Part shown: positions 4,706 to 27,596 of the stretch, piece by piece
How positions within the stretch are numbered: the stretch's first letter is position 1
Layout: every line of letters begins with the position of its first letter
IMG/VR virus record: IMGVR_UViG_3300031867_000002
Coordinates: 128,001-192,000 of that record
Strand: one strand, 5' to 3'
DNA from: a virus
Taxonomy: Duplodnaviria > Caudoviricetes
DNA: 64,000 nucleotides
Position numbers and translations under genes: made by a program
Notes under the pieces: generated by a model
The model's input: the letters and a program-made list of their open reading frames with translations, nothing else
Told to the model about the DNA's origin: nothing
Database searches by the model: none

Positions 4706-5247
4706 ATATCATTTTCCTCCTTATAATATGACTTCAAATTCAAGAAGTCCTTTTCATTCATTCCGTATTTGTGAGCATCTTTCCATCCAACAAGACTCTT
4801 CTCGAATACATCTACTTTATAGAGACTAGATGTAAGTTTATCAAGGTCCATTGGTGAACCGAGTAAGAGATTCAAAGATTCATTATACTGAGCTTTATAT
4901 CTACAGTATATTATATAGTAATGCTCATATTCTGGGTCTATTACCATGAAAGAACCTTCTGTAGAGAAATGCTTGGGTGATATACAATCAACAACTACAT
5001 CCTCTATATTAGGAATGGCTTCTTGAAGTGTTCTCTTTACAATCTCTTCTTTGTTATCCCCTCTACGAATCTCCAAGAAGTTATGAGTAAAGTCATCATA
5101 TAATACTGGGTCCGATGCCCATTTACTATAATGACCATAGAACTCGTCAAAGAGATTCACTACATAACGACATTCCCTTCTTTCAAGTGCCTCTATCATT
5201 GTAGATAAAGGCACTGTTCCATTAGGGTTAAATGTAAATATTTCCAT
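4702..5247 (-). CDS. hypothetical protein
   Basis: 181-aa ORF, AAGGAG RBS. Confidence 0.7.
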   Translation of the reverse strand: MEIFTFNPNGTVPLSTMIEALERRECRYVVNLFDEFYGHYSKWASDPVLYDDFTHNFLEIRRGDNKEEIVKRTLQEAIPNIEDVVVDCISPKHFSTEGSFMVIDPEYEHYYIIYCRYKAQYNESLNLLLGSPMDLDKLTSSLYKVDVFEKSLVGWKDAHKYGMNEKDFLNLKSYYKEENDI

Positions 5248-5343
5248 ATCAATGCTCCTTTGTCATGATAAAATCATGACTCCTTTCTTATTTGGTTTAC
5301 TTCAATGTTATCTATTCGTTAAAACAAAAAATAAGGAAAAATA

Positions 5344-5403: not shown

Positions 5404-5841
5404 TTAGACAGTATATTTTACAATTACTTCATCATCATTGATAGTAGTTTCAATCTTATTAATTATTGGATTAGTAGCAATAAGCTCTTCTAAAGTAATT
5501 ACATGTTTACTTGTAGAAGATACATCGAAGTAATTCGCACATGCAATTCCGTCTGATGTATATAATTCCCACTTTGTATCATCTGCTAAAGAAGCAATAA
5601 TTTCTTTAAATCTAGCTTTATACACAGGAGCATTAATAATTACATGAGTATATGAATCAATACCATCATATGCTCCAGAAATAGATACTACATCACTTTC
5701 ATCAATAATAGACATCTCATTATTAGATGGGGTTATATGAGTAGACGAATCTAATGTATTAATATATACATTCTTATCAGAGTCAATAACATATAACCCT
5801 ACATTTTTATCAATAATACTATGAAGTTCTTTAAATTTCAT
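5404..5841 (-). CDS. hypothetical protein
   Basis: Start MKFKEL after AAAGGTGG. ORF track start is 5853. Confidence 0.65.
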   Translation of the reverse strand: MKFKELHSIIDKNVGLYVIDSDKNVYINTLDSSTHITPSNNEMSIIDESDVVSISGAYDGIDSYTHVIINAPVYKARFKEIIASLADDTKWELYTSDGIACANYFDVSSTSKHVITLEELIATNPIINKIETTINDDEVIVKYTV

Positions 5842-5945: not shown

Positions 5946-6395
5946 TTATTTTTCGATATGCTTCTGTTTTTCATACCATGCATCATTTGGAATAATCCAG
6001 AGTGCAGGCACTTCAAAATCTCCCATAGGGTCAGAACCAATAAAGGTGACTTTGGATTGCATAAGTTCTTCTGAAGTCACTGTAATACCATTGGGTGTCT
6101 TATATACATTTTCCTCTAAACTATACTCAAGATGAGCATAGTATGAGTCATCGCTTTTAACCATATCTTCATCATCAAGATATACGTTAAATCCATTGGG
6201 CATGAGCTTAAAGAGACCAAACTCCTTGAGTTCCTTGTAAGCCTTACCTGTGTTTTGAACATTCTTATTAATATAATCATGATATCTATCATGATTACAA
6301 GTTCCAACTTTTGGAATCATGCATGTTGAGCAATCTCTTGTTGTGTTAATACATACTTCATTTCCGTTTACCATAGTAATATTGTTGTCTTTCAT
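5946..6395 (-). CDS. hypothetical early protein (Cys-containing N-terminus)
   Basis: AGGAGG RBS, early-type promoter near 6451-6462. Confidence 0.7.
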   Translation of the reverse strand: MKDNNITMVNGNEVCINTTRDCSTCMIPKVGTCNHDRYHDYINKNVQNTGKAYKELKEFGLFKLMPNGFNVYLDDEDMVKSDDSYYAHLEYSLEENVYKTPNGITVTSEELMQSKVTFIGSDPMGDFEVPALWIIPNDAWYEKQKHIEK

Positions 6396-6473
6396 TATAA
6401 AGACCTCCTAAAATAAAATATTTGTGATAGGAACTGGTCCTATCACAAATATAGTATACAATTAATAAACAAA

Positions 6474-7253
6474 TTACACACAATACATTAATGGCTGATT
6501 TTTATTTGCGGCTCCAACATATGCTTCTTTAAGTTCTCCGATATAGTCTTCTCTTCTTCCAGCCCAGTTTTCAAGGAAAGATAATTTAAGGTCTACTCCA
6601 GCAAACACTGTTTCAAGTCCATCATAGTGTTGTAAGTATGCTACTAAGAAAGATGCTACATCTGTAGTAGCAAGATTCTCAAATACACCCATCATTGTAC
6701 CAGGTATAGTCATTAGATTAGCTGGATGACATACAAATACATCTAATGGAATACTACCAAGACCACCAGTAATATCACCATGAGTAACACTTTGTAAACG
6801 AATCATATTAGGCTCTTTAAAGTCAACAAAGATTGTATTATTAAAGATAGATGTCATATCGGCACGAGCCTGAAGCAGCATTACGTCATCCATACTATAG
6901 TTATTATATGCCGACATATAATCATAGTAACCTATCCCGCTTTGCTGAGCTAAACCACCATCTTCTTGACCATAAGTAGTCCAGTCTATATCTTTTACAC
7001 CTAAGATATCTTGACCACCAACTAATGCGTTATCAATTATGAAGTATCCATCTTTCTTCTTAGATTTATCATTAGTATCAATCTTAATTCTCACCATATG
7101 AGGAAAGTAACGACTGAATGTAAGTAATGTATCTGGAATAATAGTCTCTTCAACCCACTTATCTTTAGAAATATCGTCAGGAAGCATTAATGGCTTCGTA
7201 CCTAAACGACGTTCAATTTTATTAAGTAGGAGATTCATTTTATTAATAGGCAT
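6474..7253 (-). CDS. virion structural protein, possibly neck/head-completion
   Basis: 259 aa, late-type promoter 7272-7283. IERRLG...TLLTFSRYFP resembles myophage neck-protein N-termini. Confidence 0.45.
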   Translation of the reverse strand: MPINKMNLLLNKIERRLGTKPLMLPDDISKDKWVEETIIPDTLLTFSRYFPHMVRIKIDTNDKSKKKDGYFIIDNALVGGQDILGVKDIDWTTYGQEDGGLAQQSGIGYYDYMSAYNNYSMDDVMLLQARADMTSIFNNTIFVDFKEPNMIRLQSVTHGDITGGLGSIPLDVFVCHPANLMTIPGTMMGVFENLATTDVASFLVAYLQHYDGLETVFAGVDLKLSFLENWAGRREDYIGELKEAYVGAANKNQPLMYCV

Positions 7254-19436: not shown

Positions 19437-21242
19437 TTAGAACTCTGGATTAACAAACTTAACACTTTTATCTGGATGAATAGTAAGTTCATATAAGCAA
19501 AGAATATTTTCTTTTGAAATACCTCTTGTTGTAAAACCATTCATACCAAGAACTTGAATTTTTGCATTAGCTTGTTTCTCACATTCCTGATTAGCCTCAA
19601 TTGTGTATACTGGTTTAACAATTGCTGTATCACCGTCATAGTCCATACCCATAGCTTCAATAAGACCATTACTAATAGAAAGTGTATCTTCGAATACTGG
19701 AGATGTATTAGAGTTAATGTCAGTATCCTCAATAACAGGATACCATTTATATAATTTCATATTGTCTTCAAAATCAGATTGAATAACCATAGGCGCAGTT
19801 TTAACAGTAGACTTTATTCTAACTTTTGTAGGATACTGATTAAGATAGGAGTCAATTGGGAAACGAGTAATAAGACACATCTTATCTGATGTAACATCAC
19901 ATGCTGCCATATAGAATAAATCACACCATGTAATACGTCTATTTACTTTAAGAGTTTCTGAATAATCTTGTTTAGTCTCTTTATATTCTTCTGAATTATT
20001 AAGTTTATATCCAGTAAATCCCATCCAAAAATTTAAATTTTTCAAATCTTTAATTTCTTTACCAGAAATAGCTCCAACTATTTGATGATTCTTAGCACGT
20101 CTAGCAAACTCTTCTTTATCTACTGGAATTTCAATAGGAATAAAACGGTTGCTATAACCATGAATAAAACGTTCAATCTGTTTATCTATTTCTACATCAG
20201 AGAATGCAATCTGATAATCTACTAATGGCACCATGATAGATTCTTTTTCATTTATCATAATAGGATACTCTAGTTTACCAGCAAATCTATTCTCAAAGAA
20301 ACGTCTTAACCAGAATGATACAAATGGTTTAAAGCAACATAGTGCTGCAGCTAGTGGTAATGCACAGTGGTCCATGTCAATCATTAAATCATCTATATCT
20401 TCTCCACTTACATCGGGAGCAGACATTACCAAACGTGCACTATAATCTACTGTTTTATACATAGTACCACGTTTAATAAGACCCATTTTACCAGGTAAGT
20501 TAGCAGGTGTTTCTTTACCATTTATAGTAGTACCATTACCAAACCAATCAAAAATTTGTACTAAAATATTTTGTACTCTTGCTTTAGTAACGTCACTTAA
20601 TGTAAGTCCATATCCAGATGTTTCTTTAAGTGCTTTTGTAGCCATTATCAAACTACTATAGAGTTTGTTTATTTCTCCTACTCCAATACCAGCATCTCTA
20701 GTATCTACGTCTCTATAGTATGCTGGTATTACTACCCACTTATCTACCCACATCTTATTTTTTACTTTCTCAATAAAGTCAATTCTCTTATTTCTAGATG
20801 CAGAATCATTCTTCTTAAACTTAATCTTAGAGAAGTTTTTCTTTAACCAATCTATCCCAGTATCGCCATCATCACTTGGAACTAAATCACCTTTATCATC
20901 AATAATAAAATAATCTGTACCATTTACAATATCTGCAATCTTACCATTGAGTTTTAATAGTGTCTTATATACTAGTGGTTGTATAAATTGAGAACCTAAA
21001 TCTATATATGCATATATACCAGCACGTTCATTTTTTGTAATGCCAAATATTTCATTGCTTAATAATCCATCTTCTGTTGGTGTAGGACCATTAAAAAATA
21101 CTGGATTACTTACCTCTTTTAACAAGTTATTCTTAATAAACTTATCTATGTCTAATAACTCTGTTTTAAAGTGTTCAGTTGCAGCTTCAGTAAAATAATC
21201 AGTTTCATCCTTAGCAATATTAACAGCTTCATCTATAAGCAT
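19437..21242 (-). CDS. phage multisubunit RNA polymerase beta' N-terminal/catalytic subunit (probably virion RNAP)
   Basis: GLLSNEIFG, VIPAYYRD, KTVDYSARLV, TRFP, catalytic GMDYDGD. Start MLIDEA after AAGGAGG, late-type promoter. Confidence 0.9.
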   Translation of the reverse strand: MLIDEAVNIAKDETDYFTEAATEHFKTELLDIDKFIKNNLLKEVSNPVFFNGPTPTEDGLLSNEIFGITKNERAGIYAYIDLGSQFIQPLVYKTLLKLNGKIADIVNGTDYFIIDDKGDLVPSDDGDTGIDWLKKNFSKIKFKKNDSASRNKRIDFIEKVKNKMWVDKWVVIPAYYRDVDTRDAGIGVGEINKLYSSLIMATKALKETSGYGLTLSDVTKARVQNILVQIFDWFGNGTTINGKETPANLPGKMGLIKRGTMYKTVDYSARLVMSAPDVSGEDIDDLMIDMDHCALPLAAALCCFKPFVSFWLRRFFENRFAGKLEYPIMINEKESIMVPLVDYQIAFSDVEIDKQIERFIHGYSNRFIPIEIPVDKEEFARRAKNHQIVGAISGKEIKDLKNLNFWMGFTGYKLNNSEEYKETKQDYSETLKVNRRITWCDLFYMAACDVTSDKMCLITRFPIDSYLNQYPTKVRIKSTVKTAPMVIQSDFEDNMKLYKWYPVIEDTDINSNTSPVFEDTLSISNGLIEAMGMDYDGDTAIVKPVYTIEANQECEKQANAKIQVLGMNGFTTRGISKENILCLYELTIHPDKSVKFVNPEF

Positions 21243-21343
21243 TGTAATATACCTCCTTATTATCATATAATTATTATAAAGTTCCACCTATCCATTCTAA
21301 CAAAACATACATATAAAATTGATTATAAAGGAGGATATTCTAT

Positions 21344-21904
21344 ATGAAGAAGCCTGTTTATTACTATCAGAATGTACAGCATTTTGATGATTATAATTGT
21401 TGTCCTAGACCTTGTCCACCGCCTCATCCATGCCCTCCTCCTCACCATCATTGTCATCCACATTATCATGGCAAAGTTGGTATTGTAGGAAGAACAGTAT
21501 TATCTGTTCGCTATGTGGATTGTCATGGTCACGTACAGACATTTGATATTCATGAGAATGAAACTTATGAGATTAAAGCAGTTAGTCAGACTCGTGGAGT
21601 TTGTACTTTTGCTGCAAGAATCATTGATTTTGAATGCTCTAAGGGTATTGAAAAGCTCATTGATAAACCTCATATGATTGATGTAACTGCAATTATTGTA
21701 GATTACTCTGATGCATATGAAAGCAAGCTTCTTAGAATTGGTATTGAGAATATCATTTCTATTAAGCCAGTAAAGTGCTTTGATGGTATGATTCCTGATT
21801 TTGTACCTCAGTGTCCAGAACCAGTATCTCCACCTCATCATTGTGAATGTAGCCCATCTGGTTATGAAGAATATGTTATTAATGACCCGTTTGAGATGGG
21901 TTAA
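21344..21904 (+). CDS. Pro/Cys/His-rich late protein
   Basis: CCPRPCPPPHPCPPPHHHCHPH, AACA-N6-TA at 21304. Confidence 0.7.
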   Translation: MKKPVYYYQNVQHFDDYNCCPRPCPPPHPCPPPHHHCHPHYHGKVGIVGRTVLSVRYVDCHGHVQTFDIHENETYEIKAVSQTRGVCTFAARIIDFECSKGIEKLIDKPHMIDVTAIIVDYSDAYESKLLRIGIENIISIKPVKCFDGMIPDFVPQCPEPVSPPHHCECSPSGYEEYVINDPFEMG

Positions 21905-21939
21905 TCGTTCTCCAAATCTAAGAAAGGAGATGAATTGTA

Positions 21940-24813
21940 TTGAAGAGATATTCTAATCTCGATATGACAGGTAATCAGATTACTAGAGTCGTAATTGAAC
22001 TTGTATCTACATTACCTGTTACTGACCTTAATATTGGTAGAATTGTATATCTTACTACAGATGATAAATTCTACGGTTATACATCTAATGGTTGGAAAGA
22101 AGTAACTCCAGATATGTTTCCTGGATATGCATATCTTGACCCTGCAGACGATAATACTAAACAGATTACTAAGTGGTCTGAACCTGGTACTACACCAGAT
22201 GCAGAAGATGACGGAGCTAAAGCTGTAGATGAGCATTCTCATAAAGATGATTATGTAACTGCAGCACAAGTTGCTACTACACTTATAAATCTTCGTAGAT
22301 TTGATGACCCAAGTATTGATAATACTAAGAATCATTACGGTTATCCAGTATACGATGTTAATGGTCAGCTTACTTCTATTGATACTACAAAAATTGTTGC
22401 AGATTATCAGTGGAGTGATTTACTGAAAAACAGAATGATGATTCCTAGAATTGCAGCAAATGGTAGTGTCGTAGAAAGTCCATTCTTTGTAGATGGTGGA
22501 TGGTATAAACTTACTACTAGAGACCAGTGGGAAACTATGATTCCTACATCTGGATGTGTAATTGAGAATATTAAACACATGGCAGAATATATTCTCGGAG
22601 TAGCATATGCTAATTTAGGTAATGGTATCTTTGCTACTAATTCAAGCGGTGAAACTATTTGGATTAGTACAACTGCTGGTAGTGCAGAAGAAAAGCTTCT
22701 TAGTGTTACAAGTAATGGTGTACAAGTACAACTTAATGTAACAACTACTGTAGATAGTAATAGCACTGATACTCAAATTCCTACTGCAAAAGCTGTATAT
22801 GATGCATTATCTTCTAGTAGTGGCTTAGATGATGCAAAAATAAATGTAATAGACGATGAAATAACACTGCACACTTTTGATACATTATCTGATGCTAAAG
22901 ACTATATTGATTCTAATAATAAACCAAAAAGTGTTATTATAGGCTCTAATGCTGGTGTAACTAGTATTGGTGATGGTACATTTGAAATGTGTGAATCTCT
23001 TACATCTATTACTATACCTGATAGTGTAACTAGTATTGGTGATAATGCATTTAGAAATTGTACATCACTTACATCTATTACTATACCTGATAGTGTAACT
23101 AGTATTGGTAATAATACATTTGATGGTTGTACATCTCTTACATCTATTACTATACCCGATAATGTAACTAGTATTTGTAATAATACATTTAGAAATTGTA
23201 CATCACTTACATCTATTACTATACCCGATAGTGTAACTAGTATTGATAGCAGTGCATTTGATGGTTGTACATCTCTTATATCTATTACTATACCCGATAA
23301 TGTAACTAGTATTGGTAATAGTGTATTTAGTGGTTGTACATCTCTTACATCTATTAATATACCTAGTAGTGTAACTAGTATTGGTAATGATGCATTTAGC
23401 GGTTGTGATATACTTTTACTCGATAACTATAAGTCTAGAACAGGTTATCCTTGGGGTGCTACTGATATATTAATTCATAACGAAAACGTTACTACTACTA
23501 TTAACGAGAATAGTACAGATAGACAAGTGCCTACAGCTAATAGTGTATATAATTTTATTATAGAAAACATGTTTTCTATAAAATTTGATATGGAATATCT
23601 AAAAGAATATATAGAAAGAACAATTACATCTATTAATATATCTGATAGTGTAACTAGTATTGGTGATGGTGCATTTAGGTATTGTAAATCTCTTACATCT
23701 ATTAATATACCTGATAGTGTAACTAGTATTGGTAGAGATGCATTTCGTAATTGTACATCACTTACATCTATTACTATACCTGATAGCGTAACTATTATTG
23801 GTAGCGGTACATTTTATGGTTGTAAATCTCTTACATCTATTACTATACCTAGTAGTGTAACTAGTATTAGTAGCAGTGCATTTTCTAATTGTAAATCTCT
23901 TACATCTATTACTATACCTAGTAGTGTAACTAGTATTAGTAGCAGTGCATTTTCTAATTGTACATCTCTTACATCTATTACTATACCTGATAGCGTAACT
24001 AGTATTGGTAGAGGTGCATTTGATGGTTGTGAATCTCTTACATCTATTACTATACCTAGTAGTGTAACTAGTATTGATGATAGTGCATTTAGGTATTGCG
24101 AATCTCTTACATCTATTACTATACCTAGTAGTGTAACTAGTATTAGTAGCAGTGCATTTGAAAATTGTAAATCTCTTACATCTATTACTATACCTGATAG
24201 CGTAACTAAAATTGGTGATGCTGCATTTAGGTATTGTACATCACTTACATCTATTACTATACCTGATAGCGTAACTAAAATTGGTAGCGGTGCATTTGAA
24301 AATTGTACATCACTTACATCTATTAATATACCTGATAGTGTAATTAGAATTGGTAGCAGTGCATTTAGCGGTTGTAAATCTCTTACATCTATTACTATAC
24401 CTGATAGTGTAACTAGTATTGGTTATGATGCATTTAGGTATTGTACATCACTTACATCTATTACTATACCTGATAGTGTAACTATTATTGGTGATGATGC
24501 ATTTGCTAGTTGTACATCTCTTACATCTATTAGTATACCTAGTAGTGTAACTAGTATTGGTAGCGGTACATTTGCTAGTTGTACATCTCTTACATCTATT
24601 AATATACCTAGTAGTGTAACTAGTATTGGTAATGATGCATTTGCTAGTTGTACATCTCTTACATCTATTACTATACCTAGTAGTGTAACTAGAATTGGTA
24701 GATATGCATTTGGTAGTAGGTCTATTACATCTATTACAATAAATAAACCAGAAGGAAGTATATCTGGTGCTCCTTGGGGAGCAACAAACGCTACAGTTCA
24801 ATGGACTGGATAA
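21940..24813 (+). CDS. fibre/receptor-binding protein with two BspA-type (TpLRR) arrays
   Basis: Fibre-like N-terminus, two STDxQxPTAxxVY motifs, about 6-7 plus about 16 repeats of LTSITIPxSVTSIGxxAFxxC. Confidence 0.85.
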   Translation: MKRYSNLDMTGNQITRVVIELVSTLPVTDLNIGRIVYLTTDDKFYGYTSNGWKEVTPDMFPGYAYLDPADDNTKQITKWSEPGTTPDAEDDGAKAVDEHSHKDDYVTAAQVATTLINLRRFDDPSIDNTKNHYGYPVYDVNGQLTSIDTTKIVADYQWSDLLKNRMMIPRIAANGSVVESPFFVDGGWYKLTTRDQWETMIPTSGCVIENIKHMAEYILGVAYANLGNGIFATNSSGETIWISTTAGSAEEKLLSVTSNGVQVQLNVTTTVDSNSTDTQIPTAKAVYDALSSSSGLDDAKINVIDDEITLHTFDTLSDAKDYIDSNNKPKSVIIGSNAGVTSIGDGTFEMCESLTSITIPDSVTSIGDNAFRNCTSLTSITIPDSVTSIGNNTFDGCTSLTSITIPDNVTSICNNTFRNCTSLTSITIPDSVTSIDSSAFDGCTSLISITIPDNVTSIGNSVFSGCTSLTSINIPSSVTSIGNDAFSGCDILLLDNYKSRTGYPWGATDILIHNENVTTTINENSTDRQVPTANSVYNFIIENMFSIKFDMEYLKEYIERTITSINISDSVTSIGDGAFRYCKSLTSINIPDSVTSIGRDAFRNCTSLTSITIPDSVTIIGSGTFYGCKSLTSITIPSSVTSISSSAFSNCKSLTSITIPSSVTSISSSAFSNCTSLTSITIPDSVTSIGRGAFDGCESLTSITIPSSVTSIDDSAFRYCESLTSITIPSSVTSISSSAFENCKSLTSITIPDSVTKIGDAAFRYCTSLTSITIPDSVTKIGSGAFENCTSLTSINIPDSVIRIGSSAFSGCKSLTSITIPDSVTSIGYDAFRYCTSLTSITIPDSVTIIGDDAFASCTSLTSISIPSSVTSIGSGTFASCTSLTSINIPSSVTSIGNDAFASCTSLTSITIPSSVTRIGRYAFGSRSITSITINKPEGSISGAPWGATNATVQWTG
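22957..23406 (+). repeat. 69-bp tandem LRR repeats, block 1 (about 6-7 units)
   Basis: Near-identical cttacatctattactatacctgatagtgtaactagtattggt units. Confidence 0.9.
23623..24740 (+). repeat. 69-bp tandem LRR repeats, block 2 (about 16 units)
   Basis: Same unit as block 1. Confidence 0.9.
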
Positions 24814-24828
24814 AGGAGATGTTAGAAT

Positions 24829-25152
24829 ATGTTATTAGAAAGTATTATTTCTAGAAATGTGTCATCTATTACTATACCTAATGGTGTAACTAGTATTGGC
24901 GATTATGCGTTTTTTTATTGTATGTCTCTTACATCTATTACTATACCTAGTAGTGTAACTAGTATTGGTAGCGGTGCATTTACTGGTTGTACATCTCTTG
25001 CATCTATTACTATACCTAGTAGTGTAACTAGTATCGGTGAAGGTGCATTTGCTAGTAATTCTATTACATCTATTACAATAAATAAACCAGAAGGAAGTAT
25101 ATCTGGCGCTCCTTGGGGAGCAACAAACGCTACAGTAACTTGGACTGGATAA
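24829..25152 (+). CDS. stand-alone mini LRR protein (3 repeats + cap)
   Basis: Own AAGGAG RBS. Last 93 bp nearly identical to 24721-24813. Confidence 0.8.
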
Positions 25153-25168
25153 TAAAGGAGGATAATAT

Positions 25169-26503
25169 ATGAAAGTTTTGACTAATCTTGACCTTGTCAA
25201 AAATCAACTTCTGAATGGTGTTATTCAGAAAGTTGCTGCTGACCCTACAACTAAACTTGCTGCAGGTTGGATTATCTTTAACACAGAAGAAGCTAAACTG
25301 AAGTATTACAATGGTGAAGAGTGGGTTACTATTGGTTCTGGTGGTGGTAGTTCTGTAGATATTGCTACAGTAATCAACTCTACTTCTACTAATTCTAAAG
25401 CTGCTGGTGCTAAAGCAGTATATGATTTTGTAACAGAAAATCTTGCTGATATTCGTGCTGTAGCAAATGGCGATGTACTCATTGTTGATTCTACAACTGG
25501 TAATATTGTAGGCATTGATGTAGATACTGTTGTTACTGAAGACTCTGTAAATCTTATTACTTCTGGTGCTGTATTTACTGCACTTCAAGAGGCTGTATCT
25601 ACTGTAGATGCAATGAAGTTCAAGGGCACTCTTGCTGCTGATGGTACTATTACTTCTACAGATACAAGTATCAATAATAAGAAGCTTACAACACTTACTG
25701 ATATTAAGAATGGTTGGACATTCAAGGCTGCTGCTGCTATTGATGCAGATGTTCTTGATATTGATGATAAGCCTATTGAAGTAGGTGATATGGTAATCGC
25801 TTGTGGTAATATGGCTACGTATGATGCTACCAAGTTCTCTGTTATCCAGATGAATCTTGATGGTGTTGTAATTGGTCCTGCATCTTCTAACGATGATACT
25901 ATTGTAGTATTCAATGGTGTTACTGGTAAAGCAGTTAAGGCATCTACTGTTACTAAGACACAGCTTGAAGCACTGTTTACTAGTCTTATCTCTTTACAAG
26001 CTGCAGCAGATGCAACCGATGTAGTATTATCTTCTTCTAATGCAGGTGACCCAACTACAGTAAAGCCAGGTCAAACAATCCAGGCTACTCTTAAGTCTAC
26101 TGGCGTAACAGCAAATACTTATGGTGATAACTCTGGTATTGTAGGTTCTACTATTGATGATAAGGACAGTTTTACTATTCCTCAGTTTACTGTAGATGAA
26201 AAAGGTCGTATGACTGCTGCAGAAGATAAGGTTATTACACTTAACCTTGCTTCTAAAGGTAATATCTATCGTAAATCTAATCCTGCTCTTACTGCAGATG
26301 CAAACGATGATTGTTCTTGGGTAATCGATGATATTGCTCTCGAAGTAAATCAGTATCCATCGGTAAACCTGTATGAAGTAAATACTGGTGAGATGGTATT
26401 AGCAGATGTATCTGTTAACTTTACTAATGAAGAAATCACCATTAGCTTTAAGCAGACTGGTGATATTTCTTCTGGTAGATATGTAGCAGTAATTGTAGTA
26501 TAA
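25169..26503 (+). CDS. tail/head fibre protein
   Basis: N-terminus paralogous to the 21940 protein (NLDxxxNQ...GxIxY/F...W), AKAVYD, DAMKFKGT and TVDEKGR fibre motifs. Confidence 0.7.
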   Translation: MKVLTNLDLVKNQLLNGVIQKVAADPTTKLAAGWIIFNTEEAKLKYYNGEEWVTIGSGGGSSVDIATVINSTSTNSKAAGAKAVYDFVTENLADIRAVANGDVLIVDSTTGNIVGIDVDTVVTEDSVNLITSGAVFTALQEAVSTVDAMKFKGTLAADGTITSTDTSINNKKLTTLTDIKNGWTFKAAAAIDADVLDIDDKPIEVGDMVIACGNMATYDATKFSVIQMNLDGVVIGPASSNDDTIVVFNGVTGKAVKASTVTKTQLEALFTSLISLQAAADATDVVLSSSNAGDPTTVKPGQTIQATLKSTGVTANTYGDNSGIVGSTIDDKDSFTIPQFTVDEKGRMTAAEDKVITLNLASKGNIYRKSNPALTADANDDCSWVIDDIALEVNQYPSVNLYEVNTGEMVLADVSVNFTNEEITISFKQTGDISSGRYVAVIVV

Positions 26504-26521
26504 AAAGGAGAGTGAAGACAT

Positions 26522-27547
26522 ATGGCTAACGATTTCTATGATGAGTTTGAAAGTGTCTTCATTGATAACGATAAACCTGAATTGGTTCCTGGTTTGGACG
26601 AGGGTTGTTGTCATTGTCCACCACCAAAGCCTGCTCCAAATCCAAGAGAGTATTTCAGGAGGCCAGAAGTTATCAATAGACCTTACTCTGATAAACCTGC
26701 TCCTGGTCCATATAGACCAGATTATTATGTAGACAGTTATGGTGATGCACAACCTAATCCAGTACCAAATACTTATTTTGTTCCTGGACGTAAATGCCCA
26801 CCACCACCTAAGCCTTGTCCTCCCCCACCTCCACCACACGATAGATGTATTCATCCTATGCATTGGGAAGAGGACCATAGATATGTGACTAAGGGTGAAC
26901 TTAATCATATTCTTATGCATATCGCTGATGCAGATATCTTTAGAGATTTATCTGAAAATGGTACTACTGTATCTGTAGGTGGTATTAAGAAGGGTACTAA
27001 ATTCCGCAAGCTTACATTTGCTCAACTAATGTGCCTTATGTTATATCCTAAGGATGGAGTAGAAGAAGATGATTATGCTTGTGAAACTGCAGATGGTAAG
27101 ACTGTACTGAATTCTACTGTTAAATATCCTATTGGTGGATTCAAAGAAGGAGATTCTCTTAAAGGTATGACTATCTCTGAAATCTTTGAAACTCTGCTTT
27201 GTGGTAAGAATCCTTGGGGTACTTATATGTGGATTTCTGATGAGATTACTGTTAATGCAGCAGATACAACAATCGATGCAGAAGTGCTCATTCCTAAGCT
27301 TGTAGAAGATTACCATGAAAACCGTGTATTCGAATTGCACGTACTTGGTACATCTGAAGCAACTGAATCTAATTACAAGTATGACGAAATCATTGCTAAG
27401 AAGGATAGCACACAAAAAACAAATGTCACTACAGAAGGTGTTCCTAGTGATATTAAATGGAGCTACAATCCAGAAAGCAAGAAGATTACTCTTCATACAG
27501 ATACAGAAATCACAAGTGTTATTAAGGTAGTAATGGTAAGACGATAA
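26522..27547 (+). CDS. Pro/Cys-rich late protein with internal GGxKxG repeat
   Basis: CCHCPPP, CPPPPKPCPPPPPP, VGGIKKG / IGGFKEG duplicated unit. Confidence 0.7.
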   Translation: MANDFYDEFESVFIDNDKPELVPGLDEGCCHCPPPKPAPNPREYFRRPEVINRPYSDKPAPGPYRPDYYVDSYGDAQPNPVPNTYFVPGRKCPPPPKPCPPPPPPHDRCIHPMHWEEDHRYVTKGELNHILMHIADADIFRDLSENGTTVSVGGIKKGTKFRKLTFAQLMCLMLYPKDGVEEDDYACETADGKTVLNSTVKYPIGGFKEGDSLKGMTISEIFETLLCGKNPWGTYMWISDEITVNAADTTIDAEVLIPKLVEDYHENRVFELHVLGTSEATESNYKYDEIIAKKDSTQKTNVTTEGVPSDIKWSYNPESKKITLHTDTEITSVIKVVMVRR

Positions 27548-27596
27548 AAAAGAAGGCGGGATGTAGAGTCCCGCCTTCCTTCTTGATGCTGAAAGG

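What the first reader, a model, noticed from the sequence alone, without database searches (positions are those of the whole stretch)
22957..25152. Modular BspA-LRR cassette array on a phage fibre: a possible RT-free diversifying receptor system
Seen: three modules, each made of n x 69-bp LRR units plus a PWGAT cap (n about 6-7, 16 and 3). Two are fused to a fibre N-terminus and one is free-standing. The framework is nearly identical at DNA level. Variation concentrates in two dipeptide slots (IGxxAFxxC), and identical variants recur in new combinations (agcagt, gatggt, aggtat, gaaaat, gctagt). The 93-bp C-cap is duplicated (24721-24813 vs 25060-25152). Inference: recombination or gene conversion shuffles slots and copy number to diversify a binding surface, conceptually like lamprey VLR assembly, with the mini gene as donor or accessory subunit.
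Basis: partly seen in the sequence, partly recalled or inferred. Interest (0 to 1): 0.75.

Follow-up and report, generated by a model that had tools for sequence, protein, structure and literature searches.

The report
Phage fibre built from LRR arrays
A giant rumen phage carries a probable host-recognition fibre whose outer part is two arrays of near-identical 69-base leucine-rich-repeat units, followed by a small free-standing copy of the same domain; the arrays change by ordinary recombination between repeats, and nothing points to a dedicated diversifying machine.

Summary
ORF 21940-24813 (957 aa) holds two BspA/TpLRR-type (Pfam LRR_5) arrays of 7 and 16 units of 69 bp. ORF 24829-25152 (107 aa) is a complete mini LRR domain with 3 units, and its C-cap matches the fibre's at 88 of 93 bases.

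Variation sits in codons 8-9 and 12-13 of each unit. These are also the most variable positions in 121 bacterial and viral arrays of the same family, so the pattern is generic. What stands out is DNA-level uniformity: framework identity is 0.97, against a family median of about 0.80.

Sister phages fill the same slot with 1-3 LRR modules of 2-16 units, or with a tip diversified by a retroelement (DGR), or with a GDPD enzyme domain. A second assembly of essentially this phage lacks exactly four units, with the junction in a 59-nt exact repeat. This is either true copy-number variation or assembly collapse.

In all four genomes compared, the fibre's and the mini gene's 3' ends share private substitutions, which indicates gene conversion. 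The genome has no reverse transcriptase, invertase or integrase.

Verdict: a recombination-prone modular receptor-binding fibre, and a new member of a known kind. Programmed, VLR-like diversification is unsupported. This scan has noted similar LRR fibres in at least 80 other genomes.

The parts
21344..21904 (+). 186-aa Cys/His/Pro-rich protein. It is the first gene of the apparent fibre operon and is conserved (95-97% aa) in all relatives.
   Evidence: no Pfam or PHROG family
21940..24813 (+). Fibre gene 1 (957 aa, TTG start): N-terminal shaft, then two LRR modules.
   Evidence: LRR_5 E=2.7e-222; phrog_35892 and phrog_18805
21940..22734 (+). Long N-terminal module (aa 1-265). It is 86-95% identical to the N-termini of P0003, P0004 and P0005, which carry other distal domains.
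22735..22806 (+). Junction ('collar') motif 1, NVTTTVDSNSTDTQIPTAKAVYDA. This is the point at which distal modules are exchanged.
22837..22950 (+). N-cap of module 1 (KINVIDDEITLHTFDTL...SVIIGSN), shared with the short-N-terminus relatives.
22951..23433 (+). LRR module 1: 7 units of 69 bp.
23404..23484 (+). Internal cap of module 1, CDILLLDNYKSRTGYPWGATDILIHNE. It overlaps the last unit.
   Evidence: conserved in all relatives
23485..23556 (+). Junction motif 2, NVTTTINENSTDRQVPTANSVYNF.
   Evidence: In relatives, a DGR-diversified domain or a GDPD domain follows this motif instead.
23572..23643 (+). Helical N-cap of module 2 (FSIKFDMEYLKEYIERTITSINIS).
   Evidence: helices at residues 19-30 and 37-47 of the AF2 model
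23644..24747 (+). LRR module 2: 16 units of 69 bp. Units 4-7 (23851-24126) are absent from the 865-aa variant.
24745..24813 (+). C-cap [22 protein letters not shown] plus the stop codon.
24829..25152 (+). Mini LRR gene (107 aa): N-cap [17 protein letters not shown], 3 units and a C-cap. A Shine-Dalgarno AGGAGA lies 9 nt upstream.
   Evidence: AF2 pLDDT 87.5; orthologues in L016, L015 and L024
25169..26503 (+). Fibre gene 2 (444 aa). It has the same type of N-terminus and a junction-like motif at 25361-25429.
   Evidence: the N-terminal 61 aa are 49% identical to a gene annotated 'tail fiber protein' in Streptococcus phage Javan290
26522..27547 (+). 341-aa Pro/Cys-rich conserved protein, the last gene of the apparent operon.
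27552..27578 (+). Strong terminator-like hairpin (11 pairs, 7 G-C) that closes the operon.

Best explanation
This is the host-recognition fibre locus of an uncultivated 225-kb jumbo phage. The phage is related to the AR9/PBS1-like jumbo phages of Gram-positive bacteria.

Fibre 1 is modular: an N-terminal shaft, a conserved junction motif, LRR module 1 with an internal cap, a second junction motif, then a distal LRR module with a terminal cap. Each module is a BspA/TpLRR-type solenoid. Its structural residues form an almost invariant framework. The residues at positions 8-9 and 12-13 (and 15) of every 23-residue turn lie between the two short strands and line up into a long variable surface. 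That surface probably binds a host cell-surface ligand (inferred).

The 69-bp units are about 97% identical outside the slots. The array is therefore a substrate for ordinary homologous recombination:
- Unequal crossing-over changes unit number.
- Gene conversion homogenises the framework and moves slot variants between units.
- Whole modules are swapped at the junction motifs.
- Selection on binding keeps the slots different.

The mini gene is a separately translated paralogue of the whole distal module. It travels with that module and repeatedly exchanges its 3' end with the fibre gene. Its most likely role is an accessory LRR subunit of the fibre tip (inferred, weakly). It also acts as an incidental partner in gene conversion.

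No dedicated diversifying enzyme takes part.
For: Family and fold:
- LRR_5 E=2.7e-222; PDB 4fs7 E=1.9e-75.
- AF2 model pLDDT 85.3, with Foldseek 4fs7 E=1e-16.

Fibre and virion context:
- The N-terminus type is shared with an annotated tail fibre gene.
- Virion structural genes are adjacent.
- The operon ends at a terminator.
- Sister proteins carry typical receptor-binding or depolymerase tips after the same junction motif: a DGR-diversified C-terminus, GDPD, GDSL/SGNH, and a weak (sub-threshold, E about 0.009) metallophosphatase-like match.

Recombination:
- An exact 4-unit difference in an otherwise identical 865-aa variant, with the junction in a 59-nt exact repeat.
- 2-16 units and 1-3 modules among relatives.
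- Private substitutions shared by the fibre's and the mini gene's 3' ends in 4 of 4 genomes.
- Framework identity of 0.973, against medians of 0.79 and 0.81 in 78 bacterial and 43 viral arrays.
- Slots A and B are statistically unlinked.

Mini gene:
- It has a Shine-Dalgarno sequence, an intact ORF and a confident fold, and it is conserved only where the distal module is LRR.

No machinery in the whole genome:
- No RVT_1, resolvase or tyrosine recombinase, and no meaningful inverted repeats.
Against: - No experiment or virion proteomics shows that these proteins are in the tail or bind the host. The N-terminal domain hits no annotated Pfam, NCBIfam or PHROG family.
- The 4-unit difference may be a short-read assembly collapse. 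Arrays break other assemblies at this spot (L019; the SRR9036512 contigs).
- The role of the mini protein is a guess.
- The spatial arrangement of the slots was inferred from secondary structure and the repeat pattern, not measured on coordinates.
Confidence: 0.7

Rival explanations
1. The locus is a recombination-based contingency locus. Unit gain, loss and shuffling, with conversion from the mini gene, would occur at high frequency within one phage population. Each burst would then contain many receptor-binding variants. This would be functionally equivalent to the DGR that sits in the same slot in sister phages, but without a reverse transcriptase.
For: - A near-identical genome differs by exactly 4 units.
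- DNA-level uniformity is unusually high, in the top ~2% of 121 arrays, which maximises recombination.
- The slots are unlinked although only 6 nt apart.
- The mini gene shows concerted evolution with the fibre.
- A DGR occupies the homologous slot in L017 and in P0008-P0011.
Against: - Only one variant pair is known, and it can be explained by assembly collapse.
- L016 and L025 are identical over 5943 nt including the arrays, though they may not be independent.
- The orthologous first and last units keep their slots partly conserved between relatives. This argues for turnover on an evolutionary time scale, not per generation.
- No dedicated enzyme is present.
Confidence: 0.15
2. The unit number and order in this record are assembly artefacts. 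The arrays are real, but the 16-unit module, or the 12-unit one in the other assembly, is a mis-assembly of short reads. In that case there is no true copy-number variation.
For: - Exact repeats of 74 and 59 nt lie inside module 2.
- Contigs of other assemblies end inside or at the arrays.
- The two assemblies differ precisely at the longest repeats.
Against: - Arrays with the same grammar but different content assemble in five or more independent relatives.
- Every unit in the record keeps the reading frame and the consensus.
- At most, this rival removes one line of evidence. It does not remove the feature.
Confidence: 0.1
3. The LRR proteins are not the receptor-binding tip. They would instead be decoration or adhesion fibres that bind something other than the host receptor, such as plant fibre, mucus or non-host surfaces, or the mini protein would be a secreted decoy.
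For: - There is no family-level link of the N-terminus to known tail fibres except one annotated Streptococcus phage gene.
- Goslar-type jumbo phages carry clouds of accessory filaments with LRR heads (10.64898/2026.04.21.720040).
- A second, non-LRR fibre gene follows directly.
Against: - The same position carries a DGR-diversified tip or a GDPD (teichoic-acid-type phosphodiesterase) domain in relatives. These are hallmarks of host-surface recognition.
- Turnover is fast relative to the flanks.
Confidence: 0.05

Closest known systems
BspA/TpLRR-type leucine-rich-repeat surface proteins (Pfam LRR_5, PF13306; solved examples 4fs7, 4gt6, 4h09, 6mlx TpLRR, 4cp6 PcpA)
   Same: The repeat is the same 23 residues, with the same consensus ([23 protein letters not shown]), the same variable positions and the same fold.
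   Different: Here the domain is on a phage fibre. Whole capped modules are duplicated in tandem, and the units are about 97% identical at DNA level against about 80% typically. A free-standing paralogue lies downstream.
DGR-diversified phage receptor-binding proteins (Bordetella phage BPP-1 Mtd type)
   Same: Both have a distal fibre tip under diversifying pressure. Sister phages (L017, P0008-P0011) carry a real DGR in exactly this slot. In the 120-nt repeat core of L017, all 13 differences between its template repeat (TR) and variable repeat (VR) are TR-A to VR-non-A, and there is an RVT_1 ORF.
   Different: The window and its whole genome have no reverse transcriptase and no TR/VR pair. Variation is by repeat recombination, not by adenine mutagenesis.
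Concerted evolution and ectopic gene conversion in tandem-repeat surface-protein genes, and mosaic module exchange in phage tail fibres
   Same: All three processes are seen here: unit gain and loss at exact repeats, homogenised frameworks, and paralogues sharing private substitutions. Modules are exchanged at conserved linker motifs.
   Different: None in principle. This is the mechanism proposed here.
Lamprey VLR assembly
   Same: Both use an LRR scaffold with capped ends and with variable surface positions.
   Different: There is no incomplete germline gene, no library of silent cassettes (one expressed paralogue only) and no evidence of a deaminase-driven copy-choice process. The variable positions are not on the concave sheet. 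The resemblance is only an analogy.
LRR/beta-helix heads on jumbo-phage accessory filaments (Goslar gp86, gp92, gp161; preprint 10.64898/2026.04.21.720040)
   Same: Both are jumbo-phage virion fibres predicted to end in LRR domains for host recognition.
   Different: The phage lineage differs (AR9-like of Gram-positives), the N-terminal module is not DUF7941, and the LRR type and array organisation differ.

Membership tests
Pfam LRR_5 / BspA-TpLRR leucine-rich repeats | Significant match to the family profile above the curated cut-off | tested here: met
   725.9 bits against a cut-off of 27.7 for the fibre; 92 bits for the mini gene
Pfam LRR_5 / BspA-TpLRR leucine-rich repeats | 23-residue repeat LxxIxIPxxVxxIGxxAFxxCxx that forms a solenoid like the solved members | tested here: met
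   Units in register; 4fs7 E=1.9e-75 by sequence and E=1e-16, TM 0.75 by fold
Diversity-generating retroelement (DGR) | A reverse transcriptase gene near the target | tested here: not met
   No RVT_1 match in the whole 224,632-bp genome. The sister locus L017 has one.
Diversity-generating retroelement (DGR) | A template/variable repeat pair that differs at template adenines | tested here: not met
   Differences between units are confined to whole codons of the slots and are not adenine-specific. L017 shows the true pattern, 13 of 13.
Site-specific inversion systems for fibre tips (Mu Gin / P1 Cin, Rci shufflon) | An invertase or tyrosine recombinase, with alternative segments in inverted orientation | tested here: not met
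   No PF00239 or PF00589 match in the genome. All modules are direct repeats, and only chance-level inverted repeats were found.
VLR-type somatic cassette assembly | An incomplete recipient gene plus a large library of non-expressed donor cassettes | tested here: not met
   The fibre ORF is complete. The only extra copy is one intact gene with its own Shine-Dalgarno sequence. Other LRR_5 hits in the genome are unrelated at DNA level.
VLR-type somatic cassette assembly | Different assembled genes in different individuals of one population | not testable with these tools
   No reads are available. The only hint is the 865-aa against 957-aa pair.
Phage tail fibre / receptor-binding protein | Presence in the virion tail and binding to the host surface | not testable with these tools
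   The evidence is contextual only: and the tips found in relatives.

The most novel reading that the evidence does not exclude
The array plus its mini gene is a retroelement-free hypervariation device. Recombination among deliberately uniform 69-bp units, with conversion from the expressed mini paralogue, would produce many unit numbers and slot combinations inside a single phage population. This would give the phage a standing repertoire of receptor-binding surfaces, interchangeable in evolution with the DGR found in the same slot of sister phages.
Probability: 0.15. Interest if true: 0.75.

Novelty: new member of a known kind. Interest (0 to 1): 0.42.

Why it matters
The locus is a clear natural example of how an uncultivated jumbo phage builds and remodels its host-recognition tip. 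A single fibre slot holds, in close relatives, LRR arrays of very different size, a DGR-diversified domain or a phosphodiesterase. That marks the tip as the host-range determinant of this rumen phage clade.

It also offers a direct comparison between retroelement-driven and recombination-driven variation of a binding surface. BspA-type LRR modules on phage fibres are common in gut and rumen viromes, but none has been studied experimentally. This locus is a simple test case: an amplicon of about 1.7 kb would show whether unit number varies within a population.

Tried and rejected
- A DGR in the window: rejected. There is no RT anywhere in the genome.
- An inversion shufflon: rejected.
- Stop-codon read-through fusing the mini gene to the fibre: the mini ORF is in frame with the fibre ORF here, but in a different frame in L016, so this is chance.
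- The whole array as an artefact: rejected, because relatives assemble arrays with the same grammar.
- 'Recurring hexamers prove cassette shuffling': weakened. Recurrence in slot A fits a small codon alphabet.
- 'The two slots are special to this phage': rejected. The same positions vary most in 121 other arrays.
- L025 against L016 as a test of array stability: 100% identical over 5943 nt, and probably the same data set, so uninformative.
- Megablast of the locus, and tblastn of the 1169-aa neighbouring protein, against 50,697 phage records: no match.
- Pfam and NCBIfam searches on the N-terminal module, on fibre 2 and on the flanking Pro/Cys-rich proteins: nothing.
- DNA of the ENA and Logan contigs could not be fetched because the files are too large. 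The variant is therefore known only as protein P0002.
- Literature searches for BspA-type LRR phage fibres found only passing annotations and the Goslar preprint.
Full report
**What is there**

The window is bases 128001-192000 of a 224,632-bp virus record with direct terminal repeats. G+C is about 32% and there are no tRNA genes in the window.

The record is a jumbo phage. It encodes split multisubunit RNA polymerase subunits (phrog_2986; phrog_25005). The beta' piece at 19437-21287 is closest, at 31-33% identity, to those of jumbo phages of Gram-positive bacteria: Listeria LPJP1, Staphylococcus S6 and DC4, and Bacillus BpSp and Goe21. This agrees with an earlier scan note that calls the clade AR9-related.

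The finding lies in a run of five plus-strand genes, 21344-27547, which ends at a strong hairpin terminator at 27552-27578. Genes for virion structural proteins lie next to it.

**Check of the observation**

- Tandem Repeats Finder gives a 69-bp period over 22955-24711 and 24863-25080, and a 339-bp period over 24524-25152.
- In register, ORF 21940-24813 (957 aa) holds module 1 (7 units, 22951-23433) and module 2 (16 units, 23644-24747). ORF 24829-25152 (107 aa) holds 3 units.
- The two terminal caps are identical at 88 of 93 bases.
- Pfam LRR_5, the BspA type, matches with E=2.7e-222 for the fibre and 3.6e-26 for the mini gene.
- The closest solved structure is 4fs7 (E=1.9e-75). An AlphaFold2 model of residues 515-957 (pLDDT 85.3) matches 4fs7 by fold (E=1e-16).

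Across 23 full units, codons 8, 9, 12 and 13 have 2.0-2.7 bits of entropy. Eleven codons never change residue and nearly always use the same codon. Nucleotide identity is 0.973 in the framework and 0.496 in the slots.

**Anatomy**

The fibre has a clear grammar:
- a long N-terminal module (aa 1-265);
- a junction motif, NVTTTVDSNSTDTQIPTAKAVYDA;
- an N-cap, module 1, and an internal cap, CDILLLDNYKSRTGYPWGAT;
- a second junction motif, NVTTTINENSTDRQVPTANSVYNF;
- a helical N-cap, module 2, and a terminal cap, [22 protein letters not shown].

The mini gene has its own AGGAGA Shine-Dalgarno sequence. It also has an N-cap ([17 protein letters not shown]) that resembles the N-cap of module 2, three units, and the terminal cap. 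It is therefore a paralogue of the whole distal module rather than a fragment. It folds confidently on its own (pLDDT 87.5).

In the model, each unit has two short strands, at positions 19-21 and 5-6. The slots lie in the 12-residue stretch between them, on either side of the buried Ala-Phe and Cys. That the slots form one exposed stripe along the solenoid is my inference. I had no coordinates to measure it.

**Is the slot pattern special?**

It is not. I extracted 1026 units from 78 bacterial arrays and 586 units from 43 viral arrays, all fetched by similarity to the mini gene.
- The consensus unit is [19 protein letters not shown].
- The most variable positions are again 8, 9, 12 and 13, at 2.9-3.6 bits.

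The two 'dipeptide slots' are thus the generic surface positions of this repeat family.

What is unusual is the uniformity at DNA level. The median framework identity within an array is 0.79 for bacteria and 0.81 for viruses. Only 2 of the 121 arrays reach 0.95. This array has 0.973, and its relatives have 0.89-0.95. The comparison set was chosen by similarity, so this is a rough baseline.

Among residues that are conserved, the fraction that also keep the same codon is 0.93 between units within the array. For flanking orthologous genes compared between sister phages it is 0.83-0.91. The units are therefore as young as, or younger than, the split between these phages, or they have been homogenised since then.

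**Shuffling**

The named hexamers recur. Two tests qualify what that means.
- Codons 8 and 9 are not linked to each other (p=0.15). They draw on a small alphabet (AGC, GAT, AAT, GGT, AGT), so recurrence in slot A is expected by chance.
- Codons 12 and 13 are strongly linked (z=5.8). Slot B therefore carries real dipeptide alleles: RY, AS, DG, SN, EN and RN.

Slot A and slot B are statistically independent in this array (p=0.70). They are weakly linked in 104 units pooled over relatives. This fits duplication followed by much recombination or patchy conversion. With 23 units the test has little power.

**Relatives**

Flanking genes found sister loci whose flanks are 93-96% identical at nucleotide level. 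The slot holds:

| Locus or protein | Content of the slot |
|---|---|
| L016 (a 223.5-kb sister phage) | 964-aa fibre with three LRR modules; mini gene with about six units |
| L015 | 620-aa fibre with two modules; mini gene with about eight units |
| L024 | Two modules, of about 13 and 6 units; mini gene with about eight units |
| P0007 | Three modules, the last with two units |
| L017, P0008-P0010 | One module, then a non-LRR C-terminal domain |
| P0011 | As L017, but the module has only two units |
| L026 | One module, then a GDPD domain (E=5.5e-22) |

In L017 that C-terminal domain is the target of a DGR. Its last ~120 bases are a variable repeat at 5204-5323, paired with a template repeat (TR) at 5467-5586. 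All 13 core differences are template-A to non-A. An RVT_1 ORF follows (E=1.2e-16).

The long N-terminal module of our fibre recurs, at 86-95% identity, in proteins that carry GDSL/SGNH-like domains or, on a weak sub-threshold match, a metallophosphatase-like domain after the same junction motif. The junction motifs are therefore the points of module exchange, and the distal position is a swappable tip.

The mini gene is present only where the distal module is an LRR with the KPEGS cap. It is absent from the DGR and GDPD versions.

**Copy-number variant**

An ENA assembly (ERZ27256863, contig of 224,370 bp) encodes the identical 186-aa, 107-aa and 444-aa proteins with the same gene spacing. Its fibre, however, has 865 aa.

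That protein (P0002) equals ours over a prefix of 648 residues and a suffix of 236 residues. It lacks exactly 92 residues, which is units 4-7 of module 2. The junction falls in a 59-nt exact repeat shared by units 4 and 8.

This is what unequal crossing-over would produce. It is also what an assembler would produce by collapsing a repeat. Other assemblies break at the array: L019 starts inside a cap, and the SRR9036512 contigs stop before the array and start after it. I could not fetch the DNA or the reads, so the question stays open.

**Gene conversion with the mini gene**

I aligned the last unit plus cap of the fibre gene and of the mini gene from four genomes. In each genome, both copies share private changes:
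- our phage: a 3-nt deletion that removes the Cys codon, TCTATT, ACA, and a synonymous AAC;
- L016: CCT and ATT, with the two copies identical from the ALTSITINK codons of the last unit to the stop (about 90 nt);
- L015: AAT;
- L024: TCT and a shared AC.

The first unit of the mini gene, in contrast, is orthologous across genomes. The mini gene is therefore old, and its 3' end has been homogenised against the fibre gene repeatedly. This is direct evidence of sequence exchange between the two genes. It shows homogenisation, not diversification as such.

**No machinery**

The whole genome has no match to RVT_1, resolvase/invertase or tyrosine recombinase. The positive controls worked. All copies are direct repeats, and only chance-level inverted repeats occur. 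The other LRR_5 hits in the genome, near base 75,000 of the record, are unrelated at DNA level and belong to a different gene pair.

**Conclusion**

The best reading (0.7) is a modular, recombination-prone receptor-binding fibre with an accessory LRR paralogue. It changes by unequal crossing-over, gene conversion and module exchange, under selection on the surface slots.

That idea is a system that diversifies within a population, with the mini gene as donor. One amplicon experiment would settle it.

LRR domains on jumbo-phage fibres have been predicted before (10.64898/2026.04.21.720040). LRR_5 proteins occur in 40 deposited phage records, where they are annotated as hypothetical. This scan has noted BspA-type LRR modules on phage fibres in at least 80 other genomes, including unit-level gene conversion. 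I therefore class this as a new member of a known kind. The alternation with a DGR in the same slot is its most interesting feature.

Noticed in passing
L017:3168-6937 (IMGVR_UViG_3300037249_000569), the slot homologous to window 21940-25152: A complete DGR sits in a sister phage. The variable repeat is at 5204-5323, at the end of a 721-aa fibre, and the template repeat (TR) is at 5467-5586. All 13 core differences are TR-A to non-A. An RVT_1 ORF lies at 6002-6937. P0008-P0011 show different variable-region sequences. The target domain hits no Pfam family.
   Followed up: partly
L026:3538-7776 (Ga0326512_10003404): In a more distant relative (75% identity), the fibre carries a GDPD phosphodiesterase domain after LRR module 1. 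An extra 518-aa fibre-like gene follows, homologous to the distal part of P0003, which gives only a weak metallophosphatase-like match. This hints at a teichoic-acid-bearing Gram-positive host.
   Followed up: partly
window 1-64000: The tetranucleotide GATC does not occur once in the 64-kb window.
   Followed up: partly
G000:C1:73512-78346 (outside the window; loci L013, L014): There are tandem pairs of paralogous genes, of 358+184 aa and 352+115 or more aa. The small partners carry repeated 'DGYP'/'QGYPSF' motifs, and one ends in a single LRR_5-like unit. This may be another set of binding proteins.
   Followed up: no
window 21344-21904 and 26522-27547: Two conserved proteins with Pro/Cys/His-rich stretches (CPPPHPCPPPHHHCHPHYH; CCHCPPPKPAPNP ... 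CPPPPKPCPPPPPPH) bracket the fibre genes. They match no known family. They could be metal-binding or fibre-anchoring parts.
   Followed up: no
L015:10562-11002 (IMGVR_UViG_3300031760_000032): In this relative, fibre gene 2 is reduced to 146 aa. The N-terminal ~60 residues are joined directly to the C-terminal ~80 residues, as an in-frame internal deletion.
   Followed up: no
L113 (IMGVR_UViG_3300021335_000009, 84 kb): An unrelated viral contig has an 11-unit LRR_5 array that is even more uniform at DNA level (framework identity 0.986). It is the only other such case among the 43 viral arrays sampled.
   Followed up: no
window 24811-24831: The mini ORF is in the same reading frame as the fibre ORF, separated by TAA and five codons. 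In sister phage L016 the frames differ, so a conserved read-through fusion is unlikely.
   Followed up: yes
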